A stretch of 64,000 bases of DNA. It comes from Stegostoma tigrinum (lineage: Eukaryota). Shown piece by piece: positions 5,793 to 45,803 of the stretch. The notes beneath the pieces are model-generated. The model ran no database searches. It saw only the letters and a program-made list of their open reading frames with translations, and was not told the origin of the DNA. Position numbers and translations under genes: made by a program. The number at the start of each line of letters is the position of its first letter. Position 1 is the stretch's first letter. Where the stretch lies: contig NC_081379.1 in the NCBI RefSeq assembly GCF_030684315.1, positions 16,584,637 through 16,648,636 of the forward strand, in the 5' to 3' direction.

Positions 5793-6049
5793 GAACAGCT
5801 GAACCAATGCAATCTGTTACTTATAATGTTGCCTGTCTCAGAAATAATATTTTTGTCCTGGAGACACCATCAGAAGTTTCTTTATCACATGCTGTACTGA
5901 GAGATCAACCTCTTTCCATCATGGGTGTCATCGTCTGTCATGTTTGCCAGGTTGCAGTTCATGCTATTATATTAATATATCAAACACTATGTGCTGATTC
6001 TTCAAATTTTCATGTATACATGTTACCGAATGATGCAGCATTAATACAG
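5793..6049 (+). CDS. FIIND-CARD protein (CARD8/NLRP1-like), internal exon spanning the ZU5 C-terminus, the autoprocessing site and the UPA start; 5' exons lie outside the window
   Basis: Acceptor ttttag|GA (phase 1) and donor CAG|gtatgt. Translation ...YNVACLRNNIFVLETPSEVSLSHAVLRDQPLSIMGVIV...IILIYQTLCADSSNFHVYMLPNDAALIQ aligns co-linearly with the NLRP1 FIIND ([38 protein letters not shown]...VLLYH...TFHLYLIPSDCSIRK, recalled). Confidence 0.88.
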
Positions 6050-6300
6050 GTATGTCAGTCCATTTAATATGGGTTTCCTTAATTGTATAGGAATACGGAG
6101 AATGTTTTAACAAATATTTTGTAGCAATGAGTTTTTTTTCTATAAAGTATGTCATAAATTATTGAAAGTTCAAAAATAGTTTATTTTATGAAATTAGTTT
6201 AAAGACATGGTTTTATGACGACTGATAATGCAACTCCCTGTGTCAAACAGAACAATTTTTACCAGGAAAATTCCAATTTGATTATTTTCTCCACATTAAT

Positions 6301-6572
6301 TCATAGAATTCCTATGGTGTGGAAACAGGCCATTCGGCCCTTCAGTAAATACCAACCCTGGGAATAGCATCCCACTCCATCCCTGGAATCCTGCATTTCA
6401 CATGGCCAATCCACCTAACCTGCACATCTTTAGACCAGAGGAGGAAACTTACACACCCACATAGACATGGGGAGAATGTGCAAACTCCACGCAGACAATT
6501 GCCCAGGGTGGAATCAAACCCAGGACCCTAATGCTATGAGGCACCAGTGCTAACATCGAGCCACTGTGCCAG
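6301..6572 (-). mobile_element. V-SINE (HE1-like), antisense
   Basis: Reverse complement of the same family as 1480-1820. Confidence 0.7.
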
Positions 6573-7089
6573 CCAAATTTGACTCAACATGCTTACACAG
6601 AGTGAAATAAAGCATTTAGCACTCTTGTTTCTCATGATTATCTACTGATCTTTAAACCAAATTTTGGCAGCAAATAAAGAAAGAACTTGCATTTATTTAT
6701 CACCATTCACACAAATATAAGTTAGCTGTAAACACAGAATGTAGGTAGCATAATATTGTGGCCTTACAAAGAGGATAAAAAGCAAAATCATTATATGAGA
6801 GTCAGGACGCCCAGGAGAAATTACTCGACAACCAAACTGAGCAACTGCAATATGAAGTCTCCCACAAAATATTTATGGTCTTTGAATGACTGTAGCACGA
6901 AAGGAGTCCACTCAACCCATTATATCCACATCAGCTATTTGTGAATCTAACTCCTTCACCCATGGCAGGGAGTGCTAAAGGAGGGACTGAGATGTTCACA
7001 GTTATAATTCATAGATGTGAAAAGGGAAAAGTGGTTCTTGTGCTGAGACCAAAGTCAACAAGACATAAAGAACTCATAATGTATTTTCG

Positions 7090-7620
7090 TAACTGAAAGA
7101 GAGATCATATTTCAAAGTTGTTGAACTGATGTTGAGCCCTGGCAGCTGTCAAGTGCAGTGTCTAAGTGGAAGTGGCAACCATTTGGAAGGGACGGGTGTT
7201 ATGAGTGATAGAAGGATAGGCCACGATGCCTTGGAGGGAATGGTTCCTGCAGAATGTTGACAGTCGAGGCAATGAGAAGATGCATCGGGTAGTGGTGTCC
7301 TGCGGGGTACTGGTGAAAATGACAGAGGAACGAGTTCGCAAGCTGGTAGGGTGGTAAATGAGGACAAGTTGAGGCCGCTCATTGTTCTGAGAGGGAAACA
7401 AAGGGATGAGGGAAGAATTGCAGGAAACAGGTTGCAGATGACTGAGAATCTTCACATTTGCTCACACCCTGCTTCGTTCAAGGACTCCACGCTATTCTCC
7501 ATGTTTCTTGCCCATGTTACCTCTGCTCCAATGAAGCCACTTTCTACAGTGGCATCTCCAATATGTCCTCCTTTTTTCCTAATTAAGGATTCACTGCTGC
7601 CCACACCCCTCCTCTCTTGA
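7090..7620. mobile_element. Penelope-like fragments in opposite orientations
   Basis: Minus-strand NNERPQLVLIYHPTSL and plus-strand HPASFKDS...FL match the PLE RT-to-EN linker seen at 21-26 kb. Confidence 0.6.
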
Positions 7621-7649
7621 AGTGGTTGACAAGACTCTCAAACATTTGT

Positions 7650-10600
7650 TCAAAATTGTTTATTGTAAAAGTTTTTCTGTTGGCTTGATGTATTTCGCCT
7701 GGGTAATCTAAGATGGAGGAAAGGAAAAAATTGTGGCAGTAAGAACTGCTCCTTTTTTGAGGTATTTTCAGTGTTGGAGCTGATTTCTTCAAACTCTGGA
7801 AACAGTAATTACTGTTTTACAAGCTGTTGCATTGCTTTGGAGCTGTGGGATAAAAAAGTCAAAATAATGGCTCTTTTAAAAGGAGGAAGAGCGACAAAGG
7901 TCATGACCAATGGGAGGTGAATCAAATTGAGCAGAAAAACTGCACAGCTGTCTGACCCAGCAGCAACTTGCATAGCTTACTGCATTTGCAGTTTGGTTTC
8001 AAGTATCCCTGGACATCAAAGTTCATCTAAGAAAAATTAACAAACAGCAAAAGTCCCAGCTGACCTTGGAGAAGCCTGTGTAGGGAAGCTCACAACAGGG
8101 GAGCAGCTAAGTGGCTGGATTTTAGGTATAACCTTACTGTTTATTGTAAATCCACAATAGTGAATAGAGTGGGTTCTTTTTTGATCATATGTTTTCATTG
8201 AAATCTGTCTCTTCATTAGACTTTAAAAATATAAAAGCATGGGTAGTAAATTAGACTGGAGCAATGTCTTTAGCGCAGTACAACTGAGCTATTTTCTGGG
8301 CCAGTATATTGTTAAGGTGCAAGGATGGCCTTTAATAGATTGACATATTCTTCCTATCAAATGTGGGAGATTAGGGATAATTTCCATGTTACTGATGATT
8401 ATATTTTTAGCAAGTGTGTTTGGTTACGAATCCTATTGGATCCCATTGATCAGTTGGAGAGGCAGTGAAAAGCAGTGAGAAATTTACAGGAGCTCGAGGT
8501 GTGATGGATGGCAGTTGTGGACAGAGATAAACTAAAGATACAGTTACGTAGATGGGTTACATCCAGGAAAGGCAGTGGAAGGAGGCAGGTATTGCAGGAG
8601 TCTCCTTTGGCTATCCCTATCTCAAATAGGTATGCTGTTTTGGAAAGTGCAGGGAGTGATGGACTCTCAGGGGAATTTAGCACTGATAGCCAGGTTTCTG
8701 GTACCCAGACTGGTTCTAATATAACTAGAGATATGCCAGGTTCCAACGATTGATTGAGATAGGGGACTCTCTCTTCAGAGACACAAATAGACATTTCTGC
8801 AGCCAACAGTGAGACATCAAAATGGTATGCTGCTCTCTGGTGCTAGACTCAGAGAGGGTGCAGAATATTCTCAAAGGAGAGAGGGGCCAACAAAGAATTG
8901 TTGTACACACTCAAACTAACAACATAAGATGAGAAAATGATGAGATTCTGAGTAGATAATATAACAAGTTAGGCAAGAATTTAAAAAGGAGGTCCTCGAG
9001 GGTAATCATATCTGGATTACTCCCAGTGCCACAAGCTAGTGAGGGATTTTTTTTTATTCATTCATGGGATAGGGCATCACTGGCTAGGCAAAATTCGTTT
9101 CCCATTCCTAATTACCCAGAGGGTGGTTAGGAGTTAACCACATTGCTGTGGGTCTGGAGTCACATATAGGCCAGACCAGGTAAGGATGGCAGTTTCCTTC
9201 CCAAAAGGACATTAGGGAACCAGATGGGTTTTTCCAACAATCAGCAATGGATTCATGGTAATCATTAGTCTCTTATTTTGAGATATTTATTGAATTCAAA
9301 TTCCACTATGGCAGGATTTGAACCCAGGTCCCCACAACATTATCTGAGTCTCTGGATTAACAGTCCAGCAATAACACCACTCAGCCATCACCTCCCCGTA
9401 TGGGGAAGATCGTAGAAATAAGAGGGTAGGGCAGATGAATGCATAGCTGAGGATCTGGTGCAGGGGAGAAGGATCACATTTTTGAATGGATTGCACCTGA
9501 ATTGGAAGGGGCCTAATATACTGGTGGGGAAGTTTGGTCAATCTGCTCAGGAGGATTTACATTAGTCAGGAAGGCATGGTTGTGTGTGGGACCCAAGAAG
9601 ATAGTGATGAAAGGGATCAGTCTAAAACTGGTAATGTTGGGAGAAGGGGCAAATCAAACAGTTAGGGAAGACAGGAACAAAGCAGACAATGAGGGGGTTG
9701 TGGCATTTTTGATTAGGGTTGTATGGATATTAGAGTATTTAGGATATTCCTGGGAATACGTCCAAGGAAGTTATTTGGGTGGAACTGAGAAATAAGGATC
9801 ACCTTATTGGGATTGCATTATAGACTTCCCAATAGTCAGTGGGAAATTGAGAAACAAATTTGTCAGGAGGTCTGTGAGAGTTGCAGGGTGGTTCTGGCAG
9901 GGGATTTTAACTTCCTAAACATAGAAAGGGGTTGAGGGCTTGGATAGAGAGAAATTTTGTTCAGTATGTAGAAGAAAATTTTCTGATTCAGTGTATGGAT
10001 GTACCTACCAGTGAAAGTGCAAAACTTGATGCACTCTTGGGAAGTAAGGCATGATAGGTGACTGAGGTGTCAGTGGGAGAGCACTTTGGAGCCATAGAAC
10101 ATAGAACATAGAACAGTACAGCACAGAACAGGCCCTTCAGCCCACGATGTTGTGCCGACCATTGATCCAGAGCCAGTGACCATAATTCTATTAGTTTTAA
10201 AACAGTGATGAAAAAGGATAGGCCAGATCTAAAAAGTTAAAAGTCTAAATTGGAAGAAGGCCAATTTTGATTGTATTAAACAAGCACATTCAAAAGTTCA
10301 CTGGGGGCAGATATTCGCACGTAAAAGGAAGCCTGGAAAATGGGAAGCCTTCAAAAATGCGATAACGAGAGTCCAGAGATAGTACGATCTCTGAAGGGTA
10401 AGGGCAAGGCTGGTAGGTATGGGGAATGCTGGATGAATAGAGAAATTTAGGTTTTGGTCAAGAATAAGAAGGAAACATATGTCAGGTACATCCAGCAGGG
10501 ATCGAGTGAATCCCTAGAAGGGTATGAAGGTAGTAGGAATATACTTTAGAGAGAGATTAGGAAGGCTAAAAGGGGACATGAGATAGCTTTGGCAAATAGG

Positions 10601-12345
10601 GTTAAGCACAACACAAAGGGATTCTACAAATACATTAAGGTCAAAAGGGTAACCGGGAAGAGAACAGGTCCCTTAAAGATCTTCAAGGCCAACCATGTGT
10701 GGTACCGCAGGATTTGGGTGAGATACAAAATGAGTATTTTGCACCAGAGTTTAGTGTGGAGAAGGACATGGAAGATAGGGAGAGAAAGTGGGGAAATAAA
10801 TAATGACATCTTGAAAAATATCCATATTACTGAGGAGGAGGTGCTGGATGGCGTAAAATGCATAGAGGTTGATAACTCTGGGACTACATTTATGTAGGAT
10901 ATCTGGTTGGCATGGATGAGTTAGACTGAAGGGTCCATTTCTGAGCTGTACATCTCTATGACTCAATGAGTCTAAATCCCCGGGACCTGATCAGGTGAAC
11001 CGTAGAACTCTGTTGGAAGCTAGGGAAGTGATAGCTGGACCCCTCGCTGAGATATTTGCATCATCGATAGCCACAGGTGAGGCGTCAGAAGACTGGAGGT
11101 TGGTTAACGTGGCGCCACTGTTTAAGAAAGGTGGAAGGAAAACTGAGGGAACTATAGACCAGTGAGCCTAACATCAGTGATGGTCAGGTTGTTGGAGGGA
11201 ATCCTGAGGGACAGAATTTATAGGTGTTTGGAAAGGCAAGGACTGATTGGGCAGAGTCAACTTGGCTTTGTGCATGGGAAATCATGTCTCACTAACTTGG
11301 ATGAGTTTTTTGAAGAAGTAACAAAGAGGATTGATGAGGGCAGAGAAGTGGATGCCATCTATATGGAGTTCAGTAAGGCATTTGACAAGGATCAGTGCTA
11401 GGTCCACTGCTTTTCATCATTTACATAAATGACTTGGATATAAACATAAGAGGTCGGCACCTTTTCAGGTGACACCAAAATTAGTGGTGCAGTGTATGGT
11501 GAAAAAGGTTACCTCAGAGGACAATGAGATCTTGATCAGATGGGCCAATGGGCCAAGGAGTGGCAGATGGAGTTTAATTTAGGTAAATGTGAGGTGTTGC
11601 ACTTTGGCAAATCCGGGGAGGACTTATACACTTAATGGTAAGGTCCTAGAGAGCATTGCTGAACAAAGAGAGCTTGGGGTGCAGGTTCATAGTTCCTTGG
11701 AAGCTGAGTTGCAGGTAGATAGGATAGTGAAGAAGGCATTTGGTACGCTTGCCTTTTCTGGTCAGTGTATTGAGTAAAGGAGTTAGGAGGTCAGGACATT
11801 GGTTAGGCCGCATTTGAAATATTGCATGCAGTTCTGGTCTCTCTGCTACAGGAACAATGTTTTGAGACTTGAAAGGGGTTAGAAAATATTTACAAAGGAT
11901 TTTGTCAGGTTTGGAGGGTTTGTACTATAGGGGGAGGCTGAATGGACTGGGGCTGATTTCCATGGAGCATTGGAGATGTTTATAAAATCAAGAAGGGAAT
12001 GGATAGGGTGAATAACCAAGGTCTTTTCTCTGGGGTTGAGGAATCCAAAATTAGAGGTCACAGCTTTAAGGTGTCACGACAAAGATTTAAAAGGGGTCGA
12101 AGGGACAACTTTTTTTCACGCAAATGGTAGTGCCTGTATGGAATGAGCTGCCAGAGGAAGTGGTAGAGTTTGGTACAATAACGACATTTAAAAGGCACCT
12201 GGAAGGGTACATAAATAGGAATTGTTTAGAGGGATATGGTCCAAATGCTGGCAAATTGGACTAGATTATTTAGGATATCTGGTTGGCAGGGATGAGTTAG
12301 ACTGAAGGTTTCATTTTTGAGCTGTACAACTTTATGATCCTATAA
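7650..12345 (+). mobile_element. Near full-length degenerate CR1 LINE in an intron of the FIIND gene, with nested SINE and CR1-tail insertions
   Basis: ORF1 remnants (MWEIRDNF..DDY, ISNRYAVLES, IGDS esterase-like). ORF2 remnants: GDFNF, NYRPVSLTS, QLGFVHGKSCLTNL, DAIYMEFSKAFDK. 3' UTR ends at about 12345. Confidence 0.85.
9055..9397 (-). mobile_element. tRNA-derived SINE (SacSINE1/Deu-like); other copies at 17567-17921(-), 52475-52779(-), 55531-55826(+) and 61283-61632(-)
   Basis: Shared core cacattgctgtgggtctggagtcacatgtaggccagaccaggtaaggatggcagtttccttccc and a tRNA-like head with B-box (ggttcaaatcc on the sense strand). Confidence 0.75.
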
Positions 12346-12388
12346 TCTTTAAAACAAATAAAATATAGATTGTTATATAATTTTTCAG

Positions 12389-12514
12389 GAAGTTGACCGC
12401 CAAGAAAAAGAAATAAAGTCACTGAAAATTCAAAGATCCGGACAAATAATATCACTTAATTATGGTAAAAAGTATAAGATGACATCTTTTGCAAATGTAA
12501 CTATTACTCCAACG
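12389..12514 (+). CDS. FIIND-CARD protein, UPA exon
   Basis: tttttcag| ... ACG|gtaagt, 126 nt, phase 0/0. Encodes EVDRQEKEIKSLKIQRSGQIISLNYGKKYKMTSFANVTITPT, resembling NLRP1 [34 protein letters not shown]...EILPK. Confidence 0.85.
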
Positions 12515-13709
12515 GTAAGTTTAATACATTATACAGAATTAAGTGTTGTACAATATAAAATGGTTTTTCATTCATTTTGTGGGATATGGGAGTTGCCAGC
12601 ACTTATTCTCTGTTCCAAGTTGCCCCTGAGAAGGTGGTGGTGAGCTGCCTTCTTGAATGCTACGGTTCTCCTGCTGTGGGTTGACCCACAATGCTATTAG
12701 AGAGGGAATTCTAGAATTTTCATCCAGCGACAGTGAAGGAACAGCGATATATTTCCAAATCAGGATGGTGAGTGGCTTGGAGGGGAACTTGAATGTGGTG
12801 GTGTTCCAATATATCTGCTGCCCTTGTCCTTCTAGATGGCACTGAGTGAAAAGCTTTCATCTAAATTCAAGAACAGGGAATGACAGTGCAGTCATTACAG
12901 TTAATGGGAAATAAGCATAAAGTTTTGATGTACTATTTCTAATTACTAATCTTAAAAGTAGATAAATCACCAGACATGGATGCATCATTTCTATCTCTTT
13001 AAGAGAAACAAAGGAGGAAACAGTGAAGGCTTTGATCACAATTTTTCAATCCTGCCTTGGCATTGACATGGTAGACGACCATTGTCCTGCTCATATTTTT
13101 TGTAGGAAACAAAGGGATAGACCACGTAATTATTTGCCAGTCAATTTAACCTTGGTGATGCACTAATTGTCAAAGCATCAGTGTATGATTAATAAAGCTC
13201 TTGTGAAGCACCTTGTCACTTTTTTGCCTTCTTAGGGTAATTAGTTCTGTTGCCCAGCTGTGGAATTGAATTGCTCGTCCTGTATGTTTAATCATACATC
13301 ATAATTAATTGCTTGTTTTGGTTTTATAAACACTTGGATTAATGATGAACTGGTTTTTCCTTCAAATTAGGCATGTGCCTTGGAAAATCTTACAATGCCA
13401 TTTTCCACTCACTTGTTGCACAGTTTAGCCCTGTTGGACCATATACCACATTACAGCTGTCCCTCACTTCACATTTACATAAAACTGATTTCGACCAATT
13501 CAAAACCATGACCAAGGTTCCCTGACTATCTCCCTTATACCTAACTCAGGGAGAGTGAAGCCACTTGTAACTTCTGCGATCTCGTTATGATATTTAATTC
13601 AACACAAAATTGTGATGTAGCCCTGGATTTTCATTTACTCTATGACTCAGCTATTGATAATTTAGCAAAGCTTCTGATTGATCTTACCACTTAACAATGT
13701 TCTTTCAAT

Positions 13710-14345
13710 GCCACTTTGCAGAACACCTATGCTCGGTTCGCAATAAACAACTGCACCTCCCAGTCACGAACCATTTTAACTCCCCCTCCCTTTCCTTAGA
13801 AGACATGTCCATCCTGGGCTTCCTGCAGTGCCATAATGATGCCACCTGAAGGTTGCAGGAACAGGAACTCGTATTCTGCTTGGGAATGCTGCAGCCCAAT
13901 GGTATCAATGTGGATTTCACAAGCTTCAAAATCTCCCCTCCCGCCACTGCATGCCAAAACCAGCCCAGCTCATCCCCACCTCCCTAACTTGTTCTTCCTC
14001 TCACCTATCCGCTCCTCCCACCTCAAGCCACCCTCCATTTCCTACCTCTTAACCTCATCCTGCCCCCTTGACCTGTCCGTCCTCCCCGGACTGATCTCTC
14101 CCCTCTCTACCTCCCCACCCTACTCTCCTCTCCACCTATCTTCTCCTCTATCCATCTTTGATCCGCCTTCCCCTCTCTCCCTATTTATTTCAGAACCTTC
14201 TCCCCATTCCCCTTTTCTAATGAAGGGTCTAGGCCCGAAACATCAACTTTTGTGCTCTTAAGATGCTGCTTGGCCTGCTGTGTTCATCCAGCTCCACACT
14301 TTGTTGTCTCAGATTCTCCAGCATCTGCACTTCCCATTATTTCTG
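13710..14345 (+). mobile_element. Penelope-like element 3' fragment (GIY-YIG end plus terminal repeat)
   Basis: FAEHLCSVRNKQLHLPVTNHFNS...QPNGINVDF, highly similar to 26340-26965. Confidence 0.85.
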
Positions 14346-14625
14346 ATGGACAAAATAATAGGATCTGTTAATGAAGTTTATCAAAAGTCTTGGAAGGCAC
14401 TGAATATACCAATCCGTAAGGAAGTCATGTAGTGATGTTAGCAGCATCGCACACTCTGAGCTCATAGTATTTAATAATATATAAAATACTTAATATTATC
14501 CAGCATGTGATAGGCTTAGAAAATGCATTCATGACCATGACCACTGTTACTGCTTACAACTACTGTAGTATGCTCAACAACGATCTCCTGTCAATCCAAT
14601 TTACCAAACTTCTTGTTAATGACAG

Positions 14626-14767
14626 GATATAAAATTCTGCTACTTCAGGTATAATCAAAAGCAACCATTCTACGAAGTGAACTGCATGGATATGAAGTAC
14701 AATATTAAACTGAGTTTGACAGAACGAAACAAAATCAGTGTTTTATGGGAAATCCTGGTAAAACCAG
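14626..14767 (+). CDS. FIIND-CARD protein, last UPA exon
   Basis: gacag| ... CCAG|gtaagt, 142 nt, phase 0/1. Encodes DIKFCYFRYNQKQPFYEVNCMDMKYNIKLSLTERNKISVLWEILVKP, resembling NLRP1 [20 protein letters not shown]...IRLQVKD...LVWEALVKP. Confidence 0.88.
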
Positions 14768-14832
14768 GTAAGTCTTGCTCATCTTAGTGTGATGGTGAAG
14801 TTGAACATAAACAAACTGCTTATTTTTGCTCG

Positions 14833-15059
14833 TAAACATTTAACAAGAAGTTAAAGCACCATGCCAACTCAGTTCTATAGGTAAAACATAAGATATTCTG
14901 GAGTTGGATACTGTCTGTGAAAGTGTTAGATACCAGTGGGTTTTCATAAACATTTAACAAGAAGTTAAAGCACCATGCCAACTCAGTTCTATAGGTAAAA
15001 CATAAGATATCCTGGAGTTGGATGCTGTCTGTGAAAATGTTAGATACCAGTGGGTTTTC
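14833..15059. repeat. Tandem duplication, 114-bp unit x2
   Basis: taaacatttaacaagaagttaaagcaccatgcc... starts at 14833 and again at 14947, near-identical. Confidence 0.9.
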
Positions 15060-18000
15060 CACATTCATGTTATGTAAGAGATATATTCCTGAATAGACAG
15101 AAAAGCAGTCACTGTTAAAAGTAAACATCAAGGCTTTCAGCAAACTAGCAAAAATTAAGTGTTTATTGTTAAGATAATTCAAAGCTCCATGGTCGAAGAT
15201 GAGCAGAATTAGTTTCTACATGCATGTCACTAAAAAGAATGTTATCCAGCTGGCCAAACTCAGCAACTTTTTAATGAAATTATTTTTATGTCTTGACAAA
15301 GAAGAGATATTTCTATTGTAGAGGAGACAAGAACTAAATGTAAAATAATTATAATAATGTGATTAGGGAATTCAGAAGAAACTTCTTAACTGAGCGAGTT
15401 ATTAGAGTGAGGAACTCACTACCATGAGTAGCAGTCGAAGTGACCAGCATAGATGCATTTAAGGGGAAGCCAGTTAAATACATAATGGACAAAATAATAG
15501 GATCTGTTAATGAAGTTCATTGAAAATCTTGAAAGGTATTGAATCTACTAATCCATTGGGAGGTCTTTTGTGGTGCTGTGAGCAATATCCCAGCCTCTGA
15601 ATTTATGTTATAATCTTTAATAAAATACACAATATTTAGTATTATCCGGGATGTGATAGGCTTGGAAGGTGCATTTATGACCTAGACAACAGGTTGGTTA
15701 TTAACCTACAGGTTCTTCCAATACACCTACAGCCGTTGGTAAGAGCAGGACAGTGTCCTCATCAGCCAGAACTGCTTGATAGCCGCACTGCATTAGAAGA
15801 CTCCAGATGCAGGCTCTGTAATCTATGCCAAGTATCCTCCTTGTTTTGAGGTCGTACTAGATGAACAAACATATCTATACTCCATTATGAGGAGTGAGTG
15901 GGGATAATATTTTTTTAAAATGCTGATGTTCATCACGAGGAGTCACTAAAAACTGAAAAGTACCACAAAGACTAAAACTAGATTGGAAAGAGAACACCAG
16001 TTTTTAGAAAGGGATCACTGTGATTCAGTCAACTATGGCCCTGCAACAATAATTGCTAAACAGAATTGATCACGAGAAATAATCCTGAGGACTACATGAA
16101 TAGTAATGATTTGGCACCACTGTTTCAAAAGGAGATATTGCAGTAAAAGCGACTCTTTGACATTCCAAGAAAATAATACCCTCAGAGGAAACGTGGAACA
16201 CAGTTTGATGGACAACACTTCCAACATTTGTCAATAAAATTCCACACAAAATACTATTGCTGAAATTTTATGCAGTGGGGATCAAATCTACATGTTTAGA
16301 ATTGCAGTCTTATTGATGGATTAGATTTGTGGGTCTAAGTTCTTTACCTGATCAACAAAGAGATTATGAAAGTCACAAACAGTCCAATTTAAGCTCAGGC
16401 AGAGACCACAAGAAGGATGAATGAAGTTGAAAGAGATTTGAAAGATCATGCAAAAACTTGATGTTCTCCAATAAGATTACCACGAAAAATGTGCTCCATT
16501 TTTGTCACTAATATTGAAAAAACATTTTGTAATGGACACAATTCTGAGAAAACCCATTTGGCCAAACTATGAAGCTGAAGAATTGAGTCACAGGAGTATC
16601 TACATAGATCAGATTCCATAAAGCTCAAAAGGAGCTGTTGAGTGAAGATCTTGTTAAAGGTTCCAGATATTTAATAATTAAGATAAGGTACTTGTAGAGC
16701 AGAAAATACAAGCTCGGCTGAGACAATAGAATACAAGTCTTACCTAAGATTGGTGAGATCATAGATTAAGAGATTTCATATAACTAGTGGTCAGTAGTTT
16801 TCTAAGCACAATGGTGGAGTTGAAAACCTCAGATTTACCCCAAGGAGGAGCATTGGCTTAACATTTTTAATGAGGGGAGGCGATGGCCTACTGGTATTAA
16901 TGCTGGATTGCTAACCCAGAGACCCAGATAATGTTCTGGGGAACCTGGTTAAAATCCTGCCAATTCTGCTCTACAAGTACCTTATACAAGTGGATATGTG
17001 TGCTTTTTGTTCTAATATTTCTAATACATGGGCTAAAACATGCAAATAGCTCTTTCACCTGTATTTTAAGATTTTGCAAATGATTCAGGAAAAAGAACTA
17101 CAAGAAAATCTCAGAATGTTGCTTCCTATATTTAAAGAGGCAGAAGAAACAAGAGGCAAAATTTAAGCCATCTGGAGAAACTGGGACCAGAAGTGGGCAA
17201 ACCTGCATGCAAACTTGCCAGATAACAAAGTGTGGAGCTGGATGAACACAGCAGGCCAAGCAGCATCTTAGGACCACAAAAGCTTACGTTTCGGGCCTAG
17301 ACCCTTCATGCTGGTTTGCCAGAATGTTCCTGTCTCTAGGCTTTTTAGAACATACCATTTTGGGATGAAACAGTTAAGCGTCCACAAATGATGGGTGGCC
17401 AGTTAGCCCAATAAAATATCCAGAAAATCCCCACTTCCATCTTTAATGGAATTTTCTACACAGAAGATGGGCTCCTCACAGTGTCTAGAATAGGACTACT
17501 CAAAGGTGGTGGCCTTCCTGCAGCTGACCGGAGTTGGGGGCTGGGGTGCTAGAATTCCTTTATTCTTTTATTCATCAACGGGATGAGAGCACCACTGGCT
17601 AGGCAGCATTTATTGCCCATCCCGAATTGCCCAGAGGGGACTTCAGAATCAACCACTTTGCTGTGGGTCTGGAGTCACATGCAGGCCAGACCAAGTAAAG
17701 GTAGCAGTTTCCTTCCCTAAAGGACATTAATGAACCAGGTGGGTTTTTCTGACAATTGACAATGGATTCATGGTCATCATTAGATTCTAAATTCCAGATA
17801 TTTTATTGAATTCAAATTCCACCATCTGCCATGGCAGGATTTTAACCAGGTTCCCCAGAACATTATCTAGGTCTCTGGATTAGCAATCCAGCATTAATAC
17901 CAGTAGGCCATCGCCTTCCCTCGTTAATAATGTTCAGCCAATGCTCCTCCAACTAGCCTTGTCATAACCAATAAATTACTGCAATAAATTGCTCCCTCCA

Positions 18001-18526
18001 TATTTGCATTCTCACAGCTGTAGCCAGTGCCCAGATTTTACTGAGTAAATTTTATGAACTTTGAGATGGTTTTCCATCTTGTGGCACCTGCCTTTTCTCT
18101 CACTTAACTCACAGCCAGTCTCTGAGGACTGAAGGCCATCCTATTGGTCCTTCAACCTCAGGAAATTAACCATCATCTTTAATTGGATGGTCGTGTATTC
18201 CCTGCCATCGTTGGTCAAACTTTCAAAAATCTCTTTGCATTTTTATTTCAATGCCATTTGGGTTCGGTCCTGACCCTAAGCCAAACATCCAGTCCCTCTA
18301 AACAACCTGGGCAGAATCAGGCCTTACTTCCTGCTCCTGTATACTTGGGCAATGCCAATCATATTCAAATTATCTACCAATACTTATGAAAAAAGACCAT
18401 AAAAAAGACAAAATAAAGTTTTAATGTTTTCATTGATTGTGTGTTTTTAAAAGTACATTTTGGATTTTTTATGTAAAAGATTTATGTACGTCAAATTTTC
18501 TTAGATGATTGTACTTTTATTTGCAG

Positions 18527-18984
18527 ACATGTTTAAAAAGCTAAAGAAAGGTGTGGACTTTGTTCAAAGACACAAAAAGGAAATTATTTGTTGTCTTAAA
18601 ATGACTCAACCAATCTGGTCACATTTGCGAATCAAAAAGGTCATTAGCATAGATGAAGAACGTGAAGTTGCCTCTCACATTACAGAGGCACAACAAAACA
18701 GAGCCCTTGTTCAACTAATAATGAATCGGGGAGAAGATGCAGAGGAGGAATTGTACAATGCGCTGCTAGAAAATGACCCTTACTTTGTGAATGATGTGGA
18801 ATGTAATTATTCAGATAAATTATGCACCAACTGTATAAAACGATGGAGTTTAACTTCTTTACAGGAAGATAGCTTATCTGTACAGGAAACAAATAGCAGG
18901 GTTGTAAGAAAGTTGCTTACTCGTTTGTGTTTTGTAGCTAGTGGTATGATTGCAGGCTATCTGCTTGGCTACAATTTTTCATAG
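18527..18984 (+). CDS. FIIND-CARD protein, terminal exon: CARD (about 18550-18798), linker and C-terminal hydrophobic helix (about 18913-18981)
   Basis: Acceptor ttttatttgcag|AC completes a phase-1 GAC codon. GVDFVQRHKKEII...VISIDEEREV...QQNRALVQLIMNRGEDAEEELYNALLENDPYFVNDV is a CARD8/caspase-1-type CARD. Ends RKLLTRLCFVASGMIAGYLLGYNFS-TAG. The four exons join in frame (983 nt). Confidence 0.9.
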
Positions 18985-19053
18985 AAGCTGTTCTTTGCAG
19001 AATTACTCTATTGTATGTGCTGAAGCTCACTGAAGATCAACTTTTCCATACTA

Positions 19054-19059
19054 AATAAA
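19054..19059 (+). terminator. Candidate polyadenylation signal of the FIIND-CARD gene (alternatives at 19345 and 19401)
   Basis: AATAAA 70 nt after the stop codon, followed by a T-rich tract. Confidence 0.45.
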
Positions 19060-20414
19060 AATATTGTTCTTTATTATTTTATCTGAACAGATTCCCCAAG
19101 TTTCCCCTCCCCACATGTAATGAAATATAACATTTTTTAAAGCTGCTCTGTCAACAGTGGTCATTATTTATGCTTAACATGCAGAAATATTGGAAAATCA
19201 TTTGCCTTTCATTGCATTGTAATTTTTATTTCACTCAGTCCCTGACCTGTTATAAATACTCAATTTAATTTTTATTGTTTATTAACTCAACCACAGTGAC
19301 ATCACTTTCATGACACTAAGCATTCATAATATTTTACCAAGTACAATAAATGTGCAACAAAAATTAAAATCTCATTCCATTTTGAGTTACTTGTAATGTA
19401 AATAAAATTATCTCCCTTATTTAAAACCAGTGTCAAGCTGCATTGTTAATTCTTTGAAAACAGAACAACATAATGACAGAGCAGGAAAGTGGGAAAAAGA
19501 TTGAGCTGATGGAGATGGGTTTTTTTTAACTATATCCTGCCCCAATATTTGTTTTTTTCTATTTAAAAAAAGTCAAATCAAATATTTAAAACAGTAAATA
19601 TACAAAATTGCAAGGTTAGATTCCCTCTTAAATTGGAGGAACACCTAGATCCCAAGTGCATCAGAGAGGGAAAGGGTACAGACACAATAGCTGCATTTGT
19701 AAATTTCTCCTTTCAGTTACTTGGAATTTCCAGAATTTCCTCAGGGAGGGAAGGAATAGGTTAAAATGTTTCCATCTACAGCAGGCACAAGCATTCAATT
19801 TGCAATTAAAATGGATGGAATTACATAACAGTGTCAAAGTAAGCCTCTTGTTTCCAACCCACTGTCAAATCTGATGAGCTAGGAGCAGCAGTCAGCAAGC
19901 TGAGCCCCAAGTGAAGTCTAGCCAATACAAGACTACAGCTGCAGTTTAGCTGACATTCTATTCACAAGACTTAATTTAGTTACCTGCAAATGTGAGCAAA
20001 TTCAAGTCAAATTAAAGTTACTATTTGTATGATGTGTCTGATTTGAAACTAGACAATATTGGAAGAGAATAATTGTGTTATGGATGGCAGTATAATAATA
20101 TTGCACTTACGCTTTCTAACAGAATCACTGGAAGCCCTCTGGTATAGTTTATGGTAATTAACTCAAAGAGTACAATTCTTTTGAGGACAAATATGTTAAG
20201 CCATTCAGCATGCAATATGTATTTTCAACAATACGTTGTACATTCATTTTCTTTAACATCTATTCTGCAAATCTTCAGAGACCATTGTTTATTCATGCTA
20301 CAATACCAGATTGTGGTTGGGATGGTTTGCTGCCACCATCTTCTTTCCATGACTGGGTTTACACATGATAAAGAAAATGTGCAAATGAGTCTTAATGAGC
20401 TAGTAGGACTTGCC

Positions 20415-21943
20415 AAAGCTGGAGAATCTGAGATAACGCAGTGTAGAGCTGGATGAACACAGCAGGCCAAGCAGCATTAGAGGAGCAGGAAAGCTGGCAT
20501 TTCGGGTTGAGACCCTTCTTCAGAAATGGAGGAGGGGAAGGGGATTCTGAAATAAATAGGGAGATGGGGAGGTGGATAGAAGATGGATAAAGGAGAAGTT
20601 AGGGTGAGAACAGGCAGACAGGTCAAAGCGGCAGGGTTGGAGCAGTAAAGATGAATGTAGGTGGGGAGTTAGGGAGGGGATAGGTCGGTCCAGGGAGGAT
20701 GGACAGGTTAAGGAGGCAGGATGAGGTTAGTGGGTAGGAGATGGGGGTGTGGCTTGAGGTGGGAGGAATGGCTAGGGAGGCAGGGACGAGCTTGGGTAGT
20801 TTTGGGATGCAGTTGGGGTAGGGAAGATTTTGAAGCTTGTGAAGTCCACATCGATATCCTTGGGCTGCAGGGTTCCAAAGCAAAATATGAGATGCTGTTC
20901 CTGCAGCTTTCTGGTGGCATCATTGTGACAATGCAGAACGCCCAGGATGGACATGTCATCCAAGGAGTGGGGGGGGGGTGGAGTTGAAATTGTTCAGGAC
21001 TGGGAAGTGTAGTTGTTTGTTGCGAACTGGCTATAGGTGTTCCACAAAGCGGTCCCCAAGCCTCCGCTTGGTTTCCCCAATTAGAGGAGGCCACAATGGG
21101 TACAGCGGATACAGTATGCCACATTAGCAGATGTGCAGGTGAATATCTGTTTCATGTGGAAGGTCTTCTTAGGGCATGAGATGGGGGTGAGGTGTAGGTG
21201 CAGGTGTAGTGGACAAGGGAGTCACAGAGGGAGTGGTCCCTCTGGAAAGCAGATAAGGGTGGGGAGCGAAAAAATGTCTTTGGAAGTGGGGTCAGATTGC
21301 GAATGGCGGAAGTGTCAGAGGACGATACGTTGGATTCAGAGGTTGGTGGAGTGGTATGTGAGAACAAAGGGGATTCTGTTTTCGTTGTTATTGTGGGTAG
21401 GGGGTGTGAGGGATGTGTTGCAGGAAATGCAAGAGACATGGTCGAGGGCATTTTCAACCACTGTGGAGGGGAAGTTGCAGTCTTTGAAAAACAAGGACAT
21501 CTGAGATGCCTGGAAGTGGAATGCCTCATCTCGGAAGCGGATGCAGTGGAAGCAAAGGAAATGGGAATAGGGGATGGCCTTTTTGCAGGCAGGTGGGTGA
21601 GAGGAGGTGTATTCTATATAGCTGCGGGAGTCAGTAGGTTTGAAATGGATATCGGTTTCCAGATGGATGCCAGAGATGGAGACAGAGAGGACCAGGGAGG
21701 AAAGAGAGGTATCAGAGATGGTCCAGGTGGACTTAAGGCTGGGATGGAAGGTGTTAGTGAAGTGGATGAACTGTTTGTGCTCCTCATGGGAGCACAAAGT
21801 GGTGTTGATACAACCATCGATATAATGGAGGAAGAGGTGGGGATGAGGGCCAGTGTAGCTTTGGAAGAGGGATGTTCCACATATCCTACAAAGACGCAGG
21901 CATAGCTTGGGCCCATGTGGGTACCCATGGCCACTCCCTTCAT
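20415..21943 (-). mobile_element. Penelope-like retroelement (family A), 5'-truncated: RT C-terminus, GIY-YIG endonuclease and terminal repeat
   Basis: GVAMGTHMGPSYACVFVGYVE, TDIHFKPTDSRSYIEYTSSHPPACKKAIPYS and the GIY-YIG region; frameshifted. Confidence 0.88.
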
Positions 21944-22719
21944 GTCTTAATGAGCAAAGGCTTTTGTCTTAAACAAGACATAGTCTATTGCATGATAACA
22001 GTTAGGTACAAGTTAGATGTTTGAGCAGATTTTCCAAGGAGTGGCAGTGCAATCTCATCAGATGCCATTCTGATTTTTTTGTTGAAAGACAAGGACTCCA
22101 TATTTCTCAGCTGAGATTCCGCTCAGGACTTTGTCAGAAACTGGATACAGGAGATTCTGGCGAGTTGAATGCAAAATTAGTTCAGTGACAGAAAACAAGT
22201 ACAGACATGTTTGTAAATTAAAAGTGGTTTCCAATGGTGTTCTACAAGGTTTAGTCTTGGGTCTCGTGCTGTTTGTGGTATATACTAATGATTTAGACTT
22301 AAATCCAAAAGTCATGATTGGGTAATTTGCAGACAACACAAAAATTGGCCACATAGATGATAGTGAAAAAGATGGCAGTTGCACTTAATCATGAAGTGAG
22401 ACTCTTCAGAGCATTGACAAAAATTGACAGGTAAAGGCTGTATCTGCTGATGGAGCATGTGTGTTTTGCCCCACTTAATTTCATGCATGAACATTCAAAC
22501 TAGATTTGTCTTGAAAGTGGATGTGTGATGAACAGAATCCTCCTGGCCTTACCTTCCTTCTGGGCATTGTCCTTCTAGCATCTTCACTTCCTCCATCCCA
22601 CACCCTTACTTCCCCCCATCCCACATACTCACCCCATCTCCTCACACCCCCTCTCCCTCCATGTCCCTAGTCCTCTGCTGTGTTCTTTATTTCCCCTCTC
22701 AATCTGTAGATTGGATAGA

Positions 22720-24535: not shown

Positions 24536-25930
24536 GAGTTTTGAGAAGATTTGTAGCTCAGGTTGAGGTTCTGGATGTGAGTTTGCTCGCTGAGCTGGAA
24601 GGTTCGTTTTCAGATGTTTCGTCACCATTCTAGGTAACATCATCAGTGAGCCTCCGACGAAGCGCTGGTGTTATGTCCCGCTTTCTATTTATCTGGTTAG
24701 GCGTCCTTGGGTTGGTGATGTCATTTCCTGTTCTTTTTCTCAGGGGATGGTAGATTGGCTCCAAGCCAACGTGTTTGTTGATGGAATTCCAGTTGGAATG
24801 CCGTGCTTCTAGGAACTTTCGTGCATGTCTCTGTTTGGCTTGTCCTAGGATGGATGTGTTGTCCCAATCAAAGTGGTGTCCTTCCTCATCTGTATGTAAG
24901 GATATGAGTGATAGTGGGTCATGTCGTTTTGTGGCTAGTTGATGTTCATGTATCCTGGTGGCTAGCTTCCTGCCAGTTTGTCCAATGTAGTGTTTGTCAC
25001 AGTTCTTGCAAGGTATTTTGTAGATGACGTTCGTTTTATTTGTTGTCTGTACAGAGTCTTTTAAGTTCATTTGCTGCTGTTTTAGTGTGTTGGTGGGTTT
25101 GTGGGCTACCCTGATGCCAAGAGGTCCGAGTAGTCTGGCAGTCATTTCGGAAATGTCTTTGATGTAGGGGAGAGTGGTTATAGTTTCTGAGCCCGTTTTG
25201 TCTGTTTGTTTGTTTGGGTTTGTTGCTGAGGAATTGGCGGACTGTGTTCATAGGGTACCCATTCTTTTTGAATGTGCTGTATAGGTGACTTTCCTCTGCT
25301 CTGCGTAGTTCCTCTGTGCTGCAGTGTGTGGTGGCTCGTTGGAATAATGTTCTAATGCAGCTTCGTTTGTGGGTGTTGGGATGGTTGCTCCTGTAGTTCA
25401 GTATTTGGTCCGGATGTGTTGTTTTCCTGTAGACGCTGGTTTGAAGTTCCCCATTGGCTGTTCGCTCTACTGTGACATCTAGGAACGGCAGTTTGTTGTT
25501 GTTTTCCTCCTCTTTTGTGAATGTTATGCCAGTAAAGGGTATTATTGATGGTCTTGAAGGTTTCCTCTAGTTTGTTTTGTTTAGTGATGACAAAGGTGTC
25601 ATCCACACAGCGGACCCAAAGTTTGGGTTGGATGATTGGCAGAGCTGTTTGTTCGAGTCTCTGCGTTACTGCCTCTGCTAAGAACCCTGATATCGGAGAT
25701 CCCATGGGTGTACCGTTGGTTTGTCTGTAGGTTTTGTTATTGAAAGTGAAGTGGGTGGTGAGGCATAGGTCCACTAGCTTGATGATGTTGTCCTTGCTGA
25801 TGAGGTTGGTGGTGTCTGGTGTATGTGTCTTCTGTTCTTCTAATAGTGTAGTCAGTGTTTCTTTGGCCAGGTTGATGTTGATGGATGTGAACAGGGCTGT
25901 TACGTCAAAGGAGACCATTATTTCATCATA
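24536..25930 (-). mobile_element. Penelope-like retroelement (family B), relatively young: RT plus GIY-YIG
   Basis: MVSFDVTALFTSI, QTNGTPMGSPISG, WVRCVDDTF (RT motifs) and NVIYKIPCKNCDKHYIGQTGRKLATRIHEH (GIY-YIG). Confidence 0.92.
24610..24649 (-). ncRNA. Minimal type-I hammerhead ribozyme motif in the Penelope terminal repeat
   Basis: The minus strand reads UCA-CUGAUGA-U-GUUACC-UAGAAU-GGUGAC-GAAAC-AUC-UGA: intact CUGAUGA and GAAA core, a 6-bp stem II, and stem I UCA/UGA. Confidence 0.7.
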
Positions 25931-25999
25931 GGAGTGTTCTCCTAACATCCAGGGGGAAAAGCAGGAACATGGTTTGTGCAAAACCAGACATCAATAATC

Positions 26000-26965
26000 T
26001 GACACTTCCGCCATCTACAATCCGACCCCACCACCCAAGACATTTTTCCATCCCCACCCCTGTCTGCTTTACGGAAAGACCACTCTCTCCGTGACTCCCT
26101 TGTTCGCTCCACACTGCCCTCCAACCCCACCACACCCGGCACCTTCCCCTGCAACCACAGGAAATGCTACACTTGCCCCCACACCTCCTCCCTCACCCCT
26201 ATCCCAGGCCCCAAGATGACTTTCCACATTAAGCAGAGGTTCACCTGCACATCTGCCAATGTGGTATACTGCATCCACTGTACCCGGTGTGGCATCCTCG
26301 ACATTGGGGAAACCAAGCGGAGACTTGGGGACCGCTTTGCAGAACACCTCCGCTCGCTTCGCACTAAACAACTGCACCTCCCAGTCGCAAACCATTTCCA
26401 CTCCCCCTCCCATTCTTTAGATGACATGTCCGTCATGGGCCTCCTGCAGTGCCACAATGATGCCGCCCGAAGGTTGCAGGAACAGCAACTCATATTCCGC
26501 TTGGGAACCCTGCAGCCCAATGGTATCAATGTGGACTTCACCAGCTTCAAAATCTCCCCTTCCCCCACCGCATCCCAAAACCAGCCCAGTTCGTCCCCTC
26601 CCCCCACTGCATCCCAAAACCAGTCCAACCTGTCTCTGCCTCCCTAACTTGTTCTTCCTCTCACCCATCCCTTCCTCCCACCCCAAGCTGCACCCCCATC
26701 TCCTACCTACTAACCTCATCCCACCTCCTTGACCTGTCCGTCTTCCCTGGACTGACCTATCCCCCTCCCTACCTCCCCACCTATACTGTCTCCACCTATC
26801 TTCTTTTCTCTCCATCTTCGGTCCGCCTCCCCCTCTGTCCCTATTTATTTCAGAACCCTCTCCCCATCCCCCTCTCTGATGAAGGGTCTAGGCCTGAAAC
26901 GTCAGCTTTTGTGCTCCTGAGATGCTGCTTGGCCTGCTGTGTTCATCCAGCCTCACATTTTATTA
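26000..26965 (+). mobile_element. Penelope-like retroelement (family A) 3' part
   Basis: FTCTSANVVYCIHCTRCGILDIGETKRRLGDRFAEH (GIY-YIG), pyrimidine-rich 3' UTR and terminal repeat. Confidence 0.9.
26874..26905 (+). ncRNA. Minimal hammerhead-like motif in the Penelope family A terminal repeat
   Basis: CU-CUGAUGA-A-GGGU-CUAG-GCCU-GAAAC-GUC-AG. Confidence 0.6.
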
Positions 26966-28099: not shown

Positions 28100-28405
28100 A
28101 TGTCGTCCGGTGGTGAAGGCCCGCTGCTGTCGCTGGATTTTGAAGTGTTTGGCAAAGTGCAGGGAGTTTTCTTCCGGAAATATACGCAGAAAGAGGCGAA
28201 GCGGCTTGGCCTGGCTGGATGGGTGGAGAACACGGAGCAGGGGACAGTGCGAGGCCAGCTGCAGGGAGCCGAGGAGCCGGTCCGGGCCATGCAAACCTGG
28301 CTGCGCCGTACAGGTAGCCCCAAGTCCCGGATAGACAGAGCGGAGTTCAGCAACCAGAAGCGAATCCAGCGCCGGGAGTACCCCGACTTCCAGATCATCA
28401 AGTAA
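28100..28405 (+). CDS. ACYP1: Acylphosphatase-1 (101 aa), intronless
   Basis: MSSGGEGPLLSLDFEVFGKVQGVFFRKYTQKEAKRLGLAGWVENTEQGTVRGQLQG...GSPKSRIDRAEFSN...YPDFQIIK. Carries the acylphosphatase signatures GKVQGVFFR (catalytic Arg) and GWVxN (catalytic Asn). GKVQGVFFRK, GQLQG, GSPKS and DFQI match ACYP1 rather than ACYP2. Confidence 0.93.
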   Translation: MSSGGEGPLLSLDFEVFGKVQGVFFRKYTQKEAKRLGLAGWVENTEQGTVRGQLQGAEEPVRAMQTWLRRTGSPKSRIDRAEFSNQKRIQRREYPDFQIIK

Positions 28406-45395: not shown

Positions 45396-45803
45396 GCTGC
45401 CCACTGTACACTAGTTTGATTTTCTTCTACAGTGAAATCAAAATTGGGCAGAAGGTAAATTGGCTGTTGTGTTTTTCACACCGAACTTCAAACAATCTTC
45501 ATTCTTTTGAGTATCTTCAGAGTTGCTCAACAACATCATGATGTACACAGATATTAAAGGATTTATGTATGGCGTTCACTTATCATGATTACATTAATTC
45601 CTCTCACATTTTAGGCGTCTTACAATACCACATTCCCAGGTACATCGTAAATACAACCATGTGAGGCCTGCTGATATAAAATAACAGCTTTGCTGTTAAC
45701 ACATGTCTGCCACATGTTCGATACGATACACTAGGCGACACCCGGATCAAGAGTGAGCTGGGGCGAGAGCGGGCCAGTGGAGCAGCCAAGAGTGGGACGC
45801 TAC

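What the first reader, a model, noticed from the sequence alone, without database searches (positions are those of the whole stretch)
5793..18984. FIIND(ZU5-UPA)-CARD inflammasome-type protein with a C-terminal membrane anchor
Seen: four GT-AG exons splice in frame into about 327 aa reading ZU5 end - UPA - CARD - ~38 aa linker - RKLLTRLCFVASGMIAGYLLGYNFS-stop. Established: human CARD8 and NLRP1 are soluble and end at the CARD, and their released UPA-CARD fragment nucleates filaments; tail-anchored CARD proteins (MAVS, BinCARD2/CARD19) lack FIIND. Inference: this joins the NLRP1/CARD8 sensor module to a MAVS-like tail anchor, so the ~286-aa UPA-CARD-TM part would signal from, or be sequestered at, an organelle membrane. 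I do not know this architecture from described inflammasomes; it may be a shark-specific membrane-tethered sensor or regulator.
Basis: partly seen in the sequence, partly recalled or inferred. Interest (0 to 1): 0.82.

Follow-up and report, generated by a model that had tools for sequence, protein, structure and literature searches.

The report
Membrane-tailed, non-cleaving shark CARD8 relative
Sharks and rays share an unstudied relative of the human immune sensor CARD8 that ends in a conserved greasy tail, predicted to anchor it in a membrane, and lacks the histidine that CARD8 needs to cut itself, so it likely works as a membrane-tethered brake or scaffold rather than by releasing a signalling fragment.

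Summary
Four GT-AG exons splice in frame into ZU5 end-UPA-CARD plus a 60-residue extension with a hydrophobic, GxxxGxxxG-bearing tail. The same tail closes orthologues in two catsharks, two rays and one unnamed Logan protein. It is absent from the other 149 of 153 FIIND-family proteins examined. RNA-like contigs of related species splice into the last exon, and one runs through tail and stop. The tail is only marginally hydrophobic (Kyte-Doolittle 1.5-1.9), and no membrane predictor or experiment was available.

The FIIND's catalytic His is Cys and the F|S site is L|S (L|A in a ray, L|T in elephant shark), so a released 286-aa UPA-CARD-tail piece is unlikely.

The gene extends upstream. A ubiquitin-like exon, a second FIIND and TQT-rich linker exons lie colinear over 555 kb, possibly as one gene.

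Best reading: a membrane-tethered, uncleaved CARD8-like regulator. RefSeq models exist under generic names. My open-access searches found no paper on it. This scan had not noted this gene on other DNA; it had noted a different shark CARD-plus-membrane-helix gene. New variant of a known kind.

The parts
5793..6049 (+). Coding exon: end of ZU5 and start of UPA of the CARD-proximal FIIND (FIIND2). The gene continues upstream of the window: exons at G000:C34:16579737-16579957, 16571875-16571936 and 16571709-16571773.
   Evidence: Splice signals and frame; Pfam; 84% identity to catshark model; joined frame without stops
5834..5836 (+). Cys codon (TGT) at the position of the catalytic His of NLRP1 (H1186) and CARD8 (H270)
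   Evidence: Alignment of the orthologue to solved NLRP1/CARD8 chains; codon located; His in 144 of 170 FIIND segments
5912..5917 (+). Leu-Ser in place of the Phe-Ser autocleavage motif (Leu-Ala in Narcine, Leu-Thr in Callorhinchus)
12389..12514 (+). Coding exon, middle of UPA
   Evidence: (UPA-FIIND 33-73)
14626..14767 (+). Coding exon, end of UPA
   Evidence: (UPA-FIIND 76-115); its end matches the loose 5' ends of related-species contigs
18527..18984 (+). Terminal coding exon: CARD, Cys-containing linker, hydrophobic tail and stop
   Evidence: one related-species contig spans it without an indel
18556..18801 (+). CARD
   Evidence: Pfam PF00619 E 8e-14; orthologue model matches CARD8 CARD at TM-score 0.94
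18802..18912 (+). Post-CARD linker: conserved Cys-x2-Cys-containing part (13 of 22 residues invariant in 4 species), then a variable spacer (2 of 15 invariant)
   Evidence: short helix in the AlphaFold model of the orthologue
18913..18981 (+). Predicted tail anchor: 19-residue hydrophobic stretch with a G-x3-G-x3-G motif and a short uncharged end; 9 of the last 13 residues invariant in 4 species
   Evidence: Kyte-Doolittle 19-residue mean 1.58 here, 1.54-1.85 in five orthologues; helix 401-425 of the orthologue model at low confidence
19054..19406 (+). 3' UTR with AATAAA hexamers at 19054, 19345 and 19401 (use not tested)
   Evidence: a related-species contig continues into this region with many indels

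Best explanation
This is the 3' end of a conserved shark-and-ray gene for a CARD8-like FIIND-CARD protein whose conserved hydrophobic tail likely anchors it in an organelle membrane, and whose FIIND lacks the catalytic His and so likely stays uncut, which would make it a membrane-tethered brake or scaffold for CARD signalling rather than a source of released UPA-CARD filaments. Shown: exon structure, ZU5-UPA-CARD domains, conservation of the tail, the His-to-Cys and Phe-to-Leu substitutions. Predicted: the fold, and a helical tail. Inferred: (1) the tail inserts with the CARD facing the cytosol, at ER or outer mitochondrial membrane; (2) without cleavage ZU5 stays on UPA, as in full-length NLRP1/CARD8, which cannot form an inflammasome but still binds DPP9 and can capture cleaved FIIND; (3) the tethered protein therefore holds DPP9, UPA-CARD fragments of paralogues, ASC or caspase CARDs at the membrane and restrains or positions them; (4) the upstream TQT-rich disordered linker would bind the LC8 dimerising hub and set its clustering.
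For: Tail kept in all five elasmobranch orthologue sequences recovered, with the stop at the same place in three of them and five residues later in Scyliorhinus. Only these orthologues, 4 of 153 proteins, have a 19-residue Kyte-Doolittle mean of 1.5 or more in the last 45 residues; 93 of 110 CARD-bearing homologues end within 15 residues of the CARD. A related-species contig has no indel over the coding exon but 8 gaps in about 150 bases of UTR. The G-x3-G-x3-G pattern is invariant while the spacer drifts. Catalytic His is present in 144 of 170 FIIND segments and His plus FS in 131, but Cys plus L[S/A/T] marks the chondrichthyan FIIND2 clade (clade support 100/100). His mutation abolishes autocleavage; uncleavable rat NLRP1 still binds DPP9, and that complex takes up cleaved FIIND (PMC8081665, passages). 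Full-length NLRP1 cannot form an inflammasome, and uncleavable CARD8 binds DPP9 as well as wild type (PMC7483925, passages). AlphaFold model pLDDT 84.8, best matches NLRP1 and CARD8, then ankyrin-B and UNC5B. [TVIS]QT motifs are enriched in 4 of 5 linker sequences tested (p 0.0002-0.003).
Against: The tail is marginal: 1.58 here with an Arg inside and an amphipathic first half (moment 1.49), and a beta-rich stretch at the start of UPA scores higher (up to 2.31), so hydropathy alone does not discriminate. The tail helix has pLDDT of only about 50-70. No topology predictor was on hand. The Ser is retained in this species and in catsharks, so slow or His-independent cleavage is not excluded. One elephant-shark model (P0005) shows His in that column, although the RefSeq model of what appears to be the same gene shows Cys. 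Conservation of DPP9-contact and CARD-interface residues was not tested, and no binding was predicted or shown. The brake role rests on analogy only. No RNA run of this species was on record as holding the exon, and the runs laid are only guessed to be RNA.
Confidence: 0.42

Rival explanations
1. Membrane-bound activator. The tail anchors the protein, and it signals positively: one long Ubl-FIIND1-linker-FIIND2-CARD-tail protein is cut (if at all) at the upstream FIIND1, loses its Ubl-ZU5 cap to the proteasome, and the tethered remainder clusters its CARDs on the membrane through LC8 and the glycine zipper, MAVS-style.
For: Ubl exon, FIIND1 and seven phase-1/1 linker exons lie colinear on the same strand over 555 kb. 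At score 50 or more, 7 plus-strand exon candidates match orthologue linkers against 0 on the minus strand, and the 6 that match the Narcine model are in perfect order. No second CARD exon and no non-repeat CpG island lie between. The Narcine model joins everything, and the Hemitrygon model joins Ubl to the start of FIIND2. FIIND1 in this genome has His and F|S.
Against: FIIND1 has Tyr at the His position in Narcine, Rhinoraja and Scyliorhinus torazame. Scyliorhinus torazame and Rhinoraja models keep FIIND1 separate, and elephant shark has a separate FIIND-CARD gene of the FIIND1 lineage. A search for full-length relatives returned only the Narcine model. The exon chain found here covers only part of the Narcine linker, and no transcript spanning it was seen.
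Confidence: 0.25
2. The tail is a conserved amphipathic or protein-binding helix, not a membrane-spanning anchor; the protein is cytosolic or peripherally attached, perhaps through acylation of nearby Cys residues.
For: Marginal hydropathy, an Arg inside the window's helix, an amphipathic first half, and no basic residues after it. No Atlas feature hit for the tail. Invariant polar Asn-Phe-Ser end and conserved Cys residues nearby.
Against: A 17-19 residue uncharged or nearly uncharged stretch at the very C-terminus in six species; ray orthologues reach 1.8-2.1 with low moment. G-x3-G-x3-G is typical of membrane helices (recalled). Yeast mitochondrial and peroxisomal tail anchors fall below GRAVY 1.75 (PMC5450235, section 7), so marginal values are normal for real anchors.
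Confidence: 0.2
3. One reading: FIIND2 cuts itself, and a 286-aa UPA-CARD-tail fragment signals from, or is held at, a membrane.
For: Ser is kept at the scissile position in this species and both catsharks, followed by a CARD8-like S-x-M-G start. The fold is intact.
Against: His is Cys and Phe is Leu throughout the clade, and the nucleophile itself is Ala in Narcine. His is required in three tested FIINDs (PMC8081665, passages).
Confidence: 0.1

Closest known systems
CARD8 (human; PDB 7jkq, 7jn7) and the FIIND-CARD half of NLRP1 (7crw, 6x6c)
   Same: ZU5-UPA-CARD order and fold (phmmer E 6e-40 to 2e-34; Foldseek E 2e-24 and 2e-14); a disordered region before the FIIND, as in CARD8.
   Different: Catalytic His and Phe replaced; 60-residue extension with a hydrophobic tail; no NACHT or LRR in the four orthologue models scanned; a second FIIND and a Ubl upstream.
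RefSeq models XP_072343775.1 (Scyliorhinus torazame), XP_038675825.1 (S. canicula), XP_072923080.1 (Hemitrygon akajei), XP_069792258.1 (Narcine bancroftii)
   Same: Orthologues: 72-81% identity over the last exon, same tail.
   Different: Named only 'NLRP1a-like', 'CARD8-like' or 'uncharacterized'; the names note neither the tail nor the dead site. The models disagree on where the gene starts.
UNC5CL and UNC5B (membrane-bound ZU5-UPA-death domain)
   Same: ZU5-UPA-death-fold module tied to a membrane; UNC5B is uncleaved and closes on itself, UNC5CL is pro-inflammatory (PMC10084454 and PMC8419169, passages); 3g5b matched at E 1e-10.
   Different: Their membrane helix precedes ZU5 and the death fold is a DD; UNC5CL self-cleaves. 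Here the death fold is a CARD and the anchor follows it.
MAVS and CARD19 (membrane CARD proteins)
   Same: A CARD held on a membrane by a single helix C-terminal to it (PMC8997538, passages; MAVS tail anchor from search listing).
   Different: No FIIND in either (recalled). CARD19's helix is internal, not tail-anchored. MAVS has a long linker and a basic tail (recalled); this tail is uncharged and sits 37 residues after the CARD.
Callorhinchus milii FIIND proteins A0A4W3JMI4 / XP_007900136.2
   Same: Sister to the elasmobranch FIIND2 clade (100/100); Cys and L|T at the catalytic positions; one TQT-like motif upstream.
   Different: The only model with the CARD stops right after it. That model also lacks a start Met, so it may be cut short; whether holocephalans lack the tail is open.

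Membership tests
CARD8/NLRP1 FIIND-CARD inflammasome sensors | ZU5-UPA (FIIND) followed by a CARD | tested here: met
   Pfam on exons and orthologues; structure model and fold search of the catshark orthologue
CARD8/NLRP1 FIIND-CARD inflammasome sensors | Catalytic His (H1186/H270) | tested here: not met
   Cys at window 5834 and in orthologues
CARD8/NLRP1 FIIND-CARD inflammasome sensors | Phe-Ser autocleavage motif | tested here: not met
   Leu-Ser here; Leu-Ala and Leu-Thr in relatives
CARD8/NLRP1 FIIND-CARD inflammasome sensors | Chain ends at the CARD (soluble UPA-CARD) | tested here: not met
   59-64 residue extension; 93 of 110 homologues end within 15 residues
CARD8/NLRP1 FIIND-CARD inflammasome sensors | Autoproteolysis, DPP9 binding, ASC or caspase-1 recruitment | not testable with these tools
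   Needs biochemistry; interface residues were not compared
NLRP1 proper | NACHT and LRR before the FIIND | tested here: inconclusive
   None in four orthologue models; the 620 kb upstream were not scanned with a NACHT profile
Tail-anchored membrane proteins | One hydrophobic helix within the last about 30 residues | tested here: met
   Kyte-Doolittle 1.54-1.85, 4-9 residues from the end; helix in the model. Marginal.
Tail-anchored membrane proteins | Post-translational insertion with the body in the cytosol | not testable with these tools
   No topology predictor or localisation data
MAVS-type mitochondrial/peroxisomal anchor | Positively charged residues after the membrane helix | tested here: not met
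   No Lys or Arg after the helix in six species; mean tail charge is 1.12 for mitochondrial and 0.21 for ER proteins (PMC5450235, section 7), so the organelle is undecided
UNC5CL/UNC5 | Membrane helix before ZU5, and a death domain | tested here: not met
   Helix is C-terminal and the death fold scores as CARD
Multivalent LC8 clients | Several TQT-type anchors in a disordered region | tested here: inconclusive
   Enriched in 4 of 5 orthologue linkers and present in 3 of 7 linker exons found in this genome; pattern chosen after seeing the motifs; binding not tested

The most novel reading that the evidence does not exclude
Sharks and rays fused two old FIIND genes into one 555-kb gene for a two-stage, membrane-tethered sensor: Ubl-FIIND1, an LC8-binding spacer, a dead FIIND2, a CARD and a tail anchor gained by extending the CARD exon. 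Removing the Ubl-ZU5 cap would unleash CARD clustering on an organelle surface, joining CARD8-type functional degradation to MAVS-type membrane signalling in one chain.
Probability: 0.15. Interest if true: 0.82.

Novelty: new variant of a known kind. Interest (0 to 1): 0.6.

Why it matters
NLRP1 and CARD8 signal only after self-cleavage and release of a soluble UPA-CARD piece. Here a family member has kept its FIIND without the catalytic His across all cartilaginous fishes sampled, and in sharks and rays carries a probable membrane anchor. It is a natural test of two open points: what the uncleaved, full-length form of these sensors does (about half of NLRP1 stays uncut and its function is unknown; PMC7483925, passages), and whether UPA-CARD signalling can be confined to, or silenced at, a membrane. 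It would also be a case of a tail anchor arising by extension of a terminal exon, if elephant shark truly lacks it.

Tried and rejected
No RNA holder of this species was listed for the last exon; this is not used as evidence on expression. A complex prediction of the tail with itself was not obtained, so self-association is untested. The ESM Atlas gave no usable hit for the tail and only generic CARD clusters at 0.77 for the exon. A search for full-length double-FIIND relatives returned only the Narcine model. A second CARD exon between FIIND1 and FIIND2 was sought with seven CARD queries over 684 kb and not found; only the window's own exon scored well. CpG islands upstream of the window as signs of intervening genes: 7 islands, all in retroelement-like reading frames; weak evidence. 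Rejected: chance read-through of 3' UTR (frame and motif kept in six species, UTR drifts); annotation artefact (contig support); shark-only distribution (rays have it). The integrase-like N-terminus of the Narcine model was left out of searches as a likely modelling artefact. The hydrophobicity scales were typed from recall, and the Hessa sums are not the position-specific predictor. In one search the acylphosphatase ORF was given on the wrong strand and was repeated; one search failed on a script error and was repeated; the window's own FIIND was missing from the alignment and was checked.
Full report
Observation. The four exons are at the stated coordinates with AG/GT signals and give one open frame of 326 residues plus stop. 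Pfam finds the end of FIIND, three consecutive pieces of UPA-FIIND and a CARD at E 8e-14. The window lies at G000:C34:16584637-16648636 of a 3.2-Gb genome. The tree places its FIIND beside catsharks, so it is most likely a shark (inferred).

The tail is conserved. A search with the last exon found 3 proteins among 216 candidates: from Scyliorhinus torazame, Hemitrygon akajei and Narcine bancroftii, at 72-80% identity over the whole exon. S. canicula came as a cluster member, and one unnamed Logan protein from a profile search, 1 of 732 candidates. All five end in the same G-x3-G-x3-G tail. Over four species, 58 of 82 CARD residues, 13 of 22 in the Cys-containing linker, 2 of 15 in the spacer, 1 of 10 in the first half of the hydrophobic stretch and 9 of the last 13 are invariant. 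The best 19-residue Kyte-Doolittle mean is 1.58 here and 1.54-1.85 in the orthologues. That is marginal, and the beta-rich start of UPA scores up to 2.31, so hydropathy alone is not proof. AlphaFold2 on the S. torazame orthologue (66 sequences, mean pLDDT 84.8) models that UPA stretch as strands and the tail as one helix, residues 401-425, at pLDDT about 50-70.

The tail is peculiar to this clade. A full HMMER scan gave 689 hits, of which the best 150 were listed. Of these plus three earlier proteins, 4 of 153 have a mean of 1.5 or more in the last 45 residues, and all four are the elasmobranch orthologues. Of 110 with a CARD, 93 end within 15 residues of it. The remaining 539 hits were not examined. 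The elephant-shark orthologue model ends right after the CARD, but it also lacks a start Met and may be partial.

Transcript evidence. No holder on record as RNA was listed for this species. Four runs of related organisms, guessed to be RNA and held as contigs, were laid on 18400-19400. All four start at 18524; in 3 of 4 the loose 5' end matches the end of exon 14626-14767 (window letters printed), which supports that junction. One contig runs from the CARD through tail and stop into the UTR with no indel in the coding part and 8 gaps in about 150 bases of UTR. A second stops matching at 18870 and rejoins at 19135 with 278 other letters between, so it is diverged, not spliced. A third reaches 18927 and goes on with letters that read like the ray tail.

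The self-cutting site is altered. Aligned to solved rat NLRP1, human NLRP1 and CARD8, the orthologue has Cys at H1186/H270 and Leu-Ser at Phe-Ser; the window has the same (codons at 5834 and 5912-5917). Among 170 FIIND segments, some redundant, 144 have His and 131 have His plus FS. Cys occurs in 11: five chondrichthyan FIIND2 segments, five near-copies from Astyanax and one other. Narcine has Leu-Ala and Callorhinchus Leu-Thr. One Callorhinchus model shows His, where it departs from the RefSeq model of what appears to be the same gene. Mutating this His abolishes autocleavage in rat NLRP1, human NLRP1 and CARD8 (PMC8081665, passages).

The gene is larger than the window. Three more FIIND2 exons lie 5-13 kb upstream and join without a stop, 427 residues from a conserved Met; coding conservation runs on upstream of that Met. 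A FIIND scan of the genome found a second FIIND about 500 kb upstream on the same strand and a third on another contig. FIIND1 (C34:16078083-16090413) has nearly the same exon sizes, and in this genome it has His and F|S. A Ubl exon starts at C34:16048903. Between the two FIINDs, 7 phase-1/1 exon candidates score 50 or more against orthologue linkers among 2071 plus-strand candidates, against 0 of 1815 on the minus strand; the 6 matching the Narcine model are in perfect order. No second CARD exon was found in 684 kb. The Narcine model joins all parts and a Hemitrygon model joins Ubl to the start of FIIND2. S. torazame and Rhinoraja models keep FIIND1 apart, and elephant shark has a separate FIIND-CARD gene of the FIIND1 lineage. 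In a careful tree of 42 of 149 segments, FIIND2 is a chondrichthyan clade (100/100), and FIIND1 groups with that elephant-shark gene and two lungfish proteins (96/95). I put one transcript across the whole at about 0.55-0.6. FIIND1 has Tyr at the His position in three other elasmobranchs, so its cleavage is uncertain too. The linker is acidic and enriched in [TVIS]QT motifs in 4 of 5 orthologue sequences. TQT is the usual LC8 anchor (PMC12057147, passages). The pattern was chosen after seeing the motifs, and binding is untested.

How it likely works. An uncut FIIND keeps ZU5 on UPA. Full-length NLRP1 cannot form an inflammasome, and uncleavable CARD8 binds DPP9 normally (PMC7483925, passages). 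Uncleavable rat NLRP1 forms a 1:1 DPP9 complex that takes up cleaved FIIND. A permanently uncut, tail-anchored member therefore most resembles the restraining form, fixed at a membrane (0.42). The uncharged end does not pick an organelle: mean tail charge is 0.21 for ER and 1.12 for mitochondrial anchors (PMC5450235, passages and section 7).

Comparison and novelty. It is homologous to CARD8/NLRP1 but fails their catalytic and C-terminal features, so it should not be filed as a CARD8-type sensor. UNC5CL and UNC5B tie a ZU5-UPA-death module to a membrane from the other end (PMC10084454 and PMC8419169, passages). CARD19 and MAVS are membrane CARD proteins, and CARD19's helix is internal (PMC8997538, passages). 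Five searches aimed at prior description (listings only) showed no paper on this gene or on a FIIND-CARD with a C-terminal anchor. Passages read in PMC11258412 and PMC11760013 did not mention it; the supplementary gene table of the former was not opened and may list the shark models. The library covers open-access papers and bioRxiv only. The scan's own index held nothing by place or sequence and, by words, one different shark CARD-plus-helix gene.

Verdict. Function and membrane insertion are untested. New variant of a known kind; interest 0.6.

Noticed in passing
window 28100-28405 (+): Single-exon acylphosphatase ORF inside the window's only CpG island (Pfam E 2e-24); the next recognised gene downstream.
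   Followed up: partly
G000:C34:16048903-16090413 (+), upstream of the window: Ubl exon and a second FIIND with His and F|S in this genome but Tyr at the His position in three other elasmobranchs; no CARD of its own found.
   Followed up: yes
L002 (G000:C15:67202551-67202796, +): A CARD exon, 27% identical, that stops right after the CARD; possibly ASC or another CARD gene.
   Followed up: no
L017 and L019 (G000:C17, about 27048757-27052370, -): A third, distant FIIND locus in this genome with a Leu-Ser site.
   Followed up: partly
P0010 (turtle), P0056 and P0089 (lungfish): FIIND proteins with ubiquitin-like-looking N-termini (by eye, not scanned) in other vertebrates; a Ubl cap may be a recurring feature of this family.
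   Followed up: no
window 45800-46270 and 14833-15059: Tandem repeats: 11 copies of 43 bases, and 2 copies of 114 bases in the last intron.
   Followed up: no
window about 21150-21970, 24630-26650 and 62500-63330: Decayed reverse-transcriptase-type retroelement reading frames, read by eye from the ORF list; near-identical copies of one such element occur upstream.
   Followed up: no
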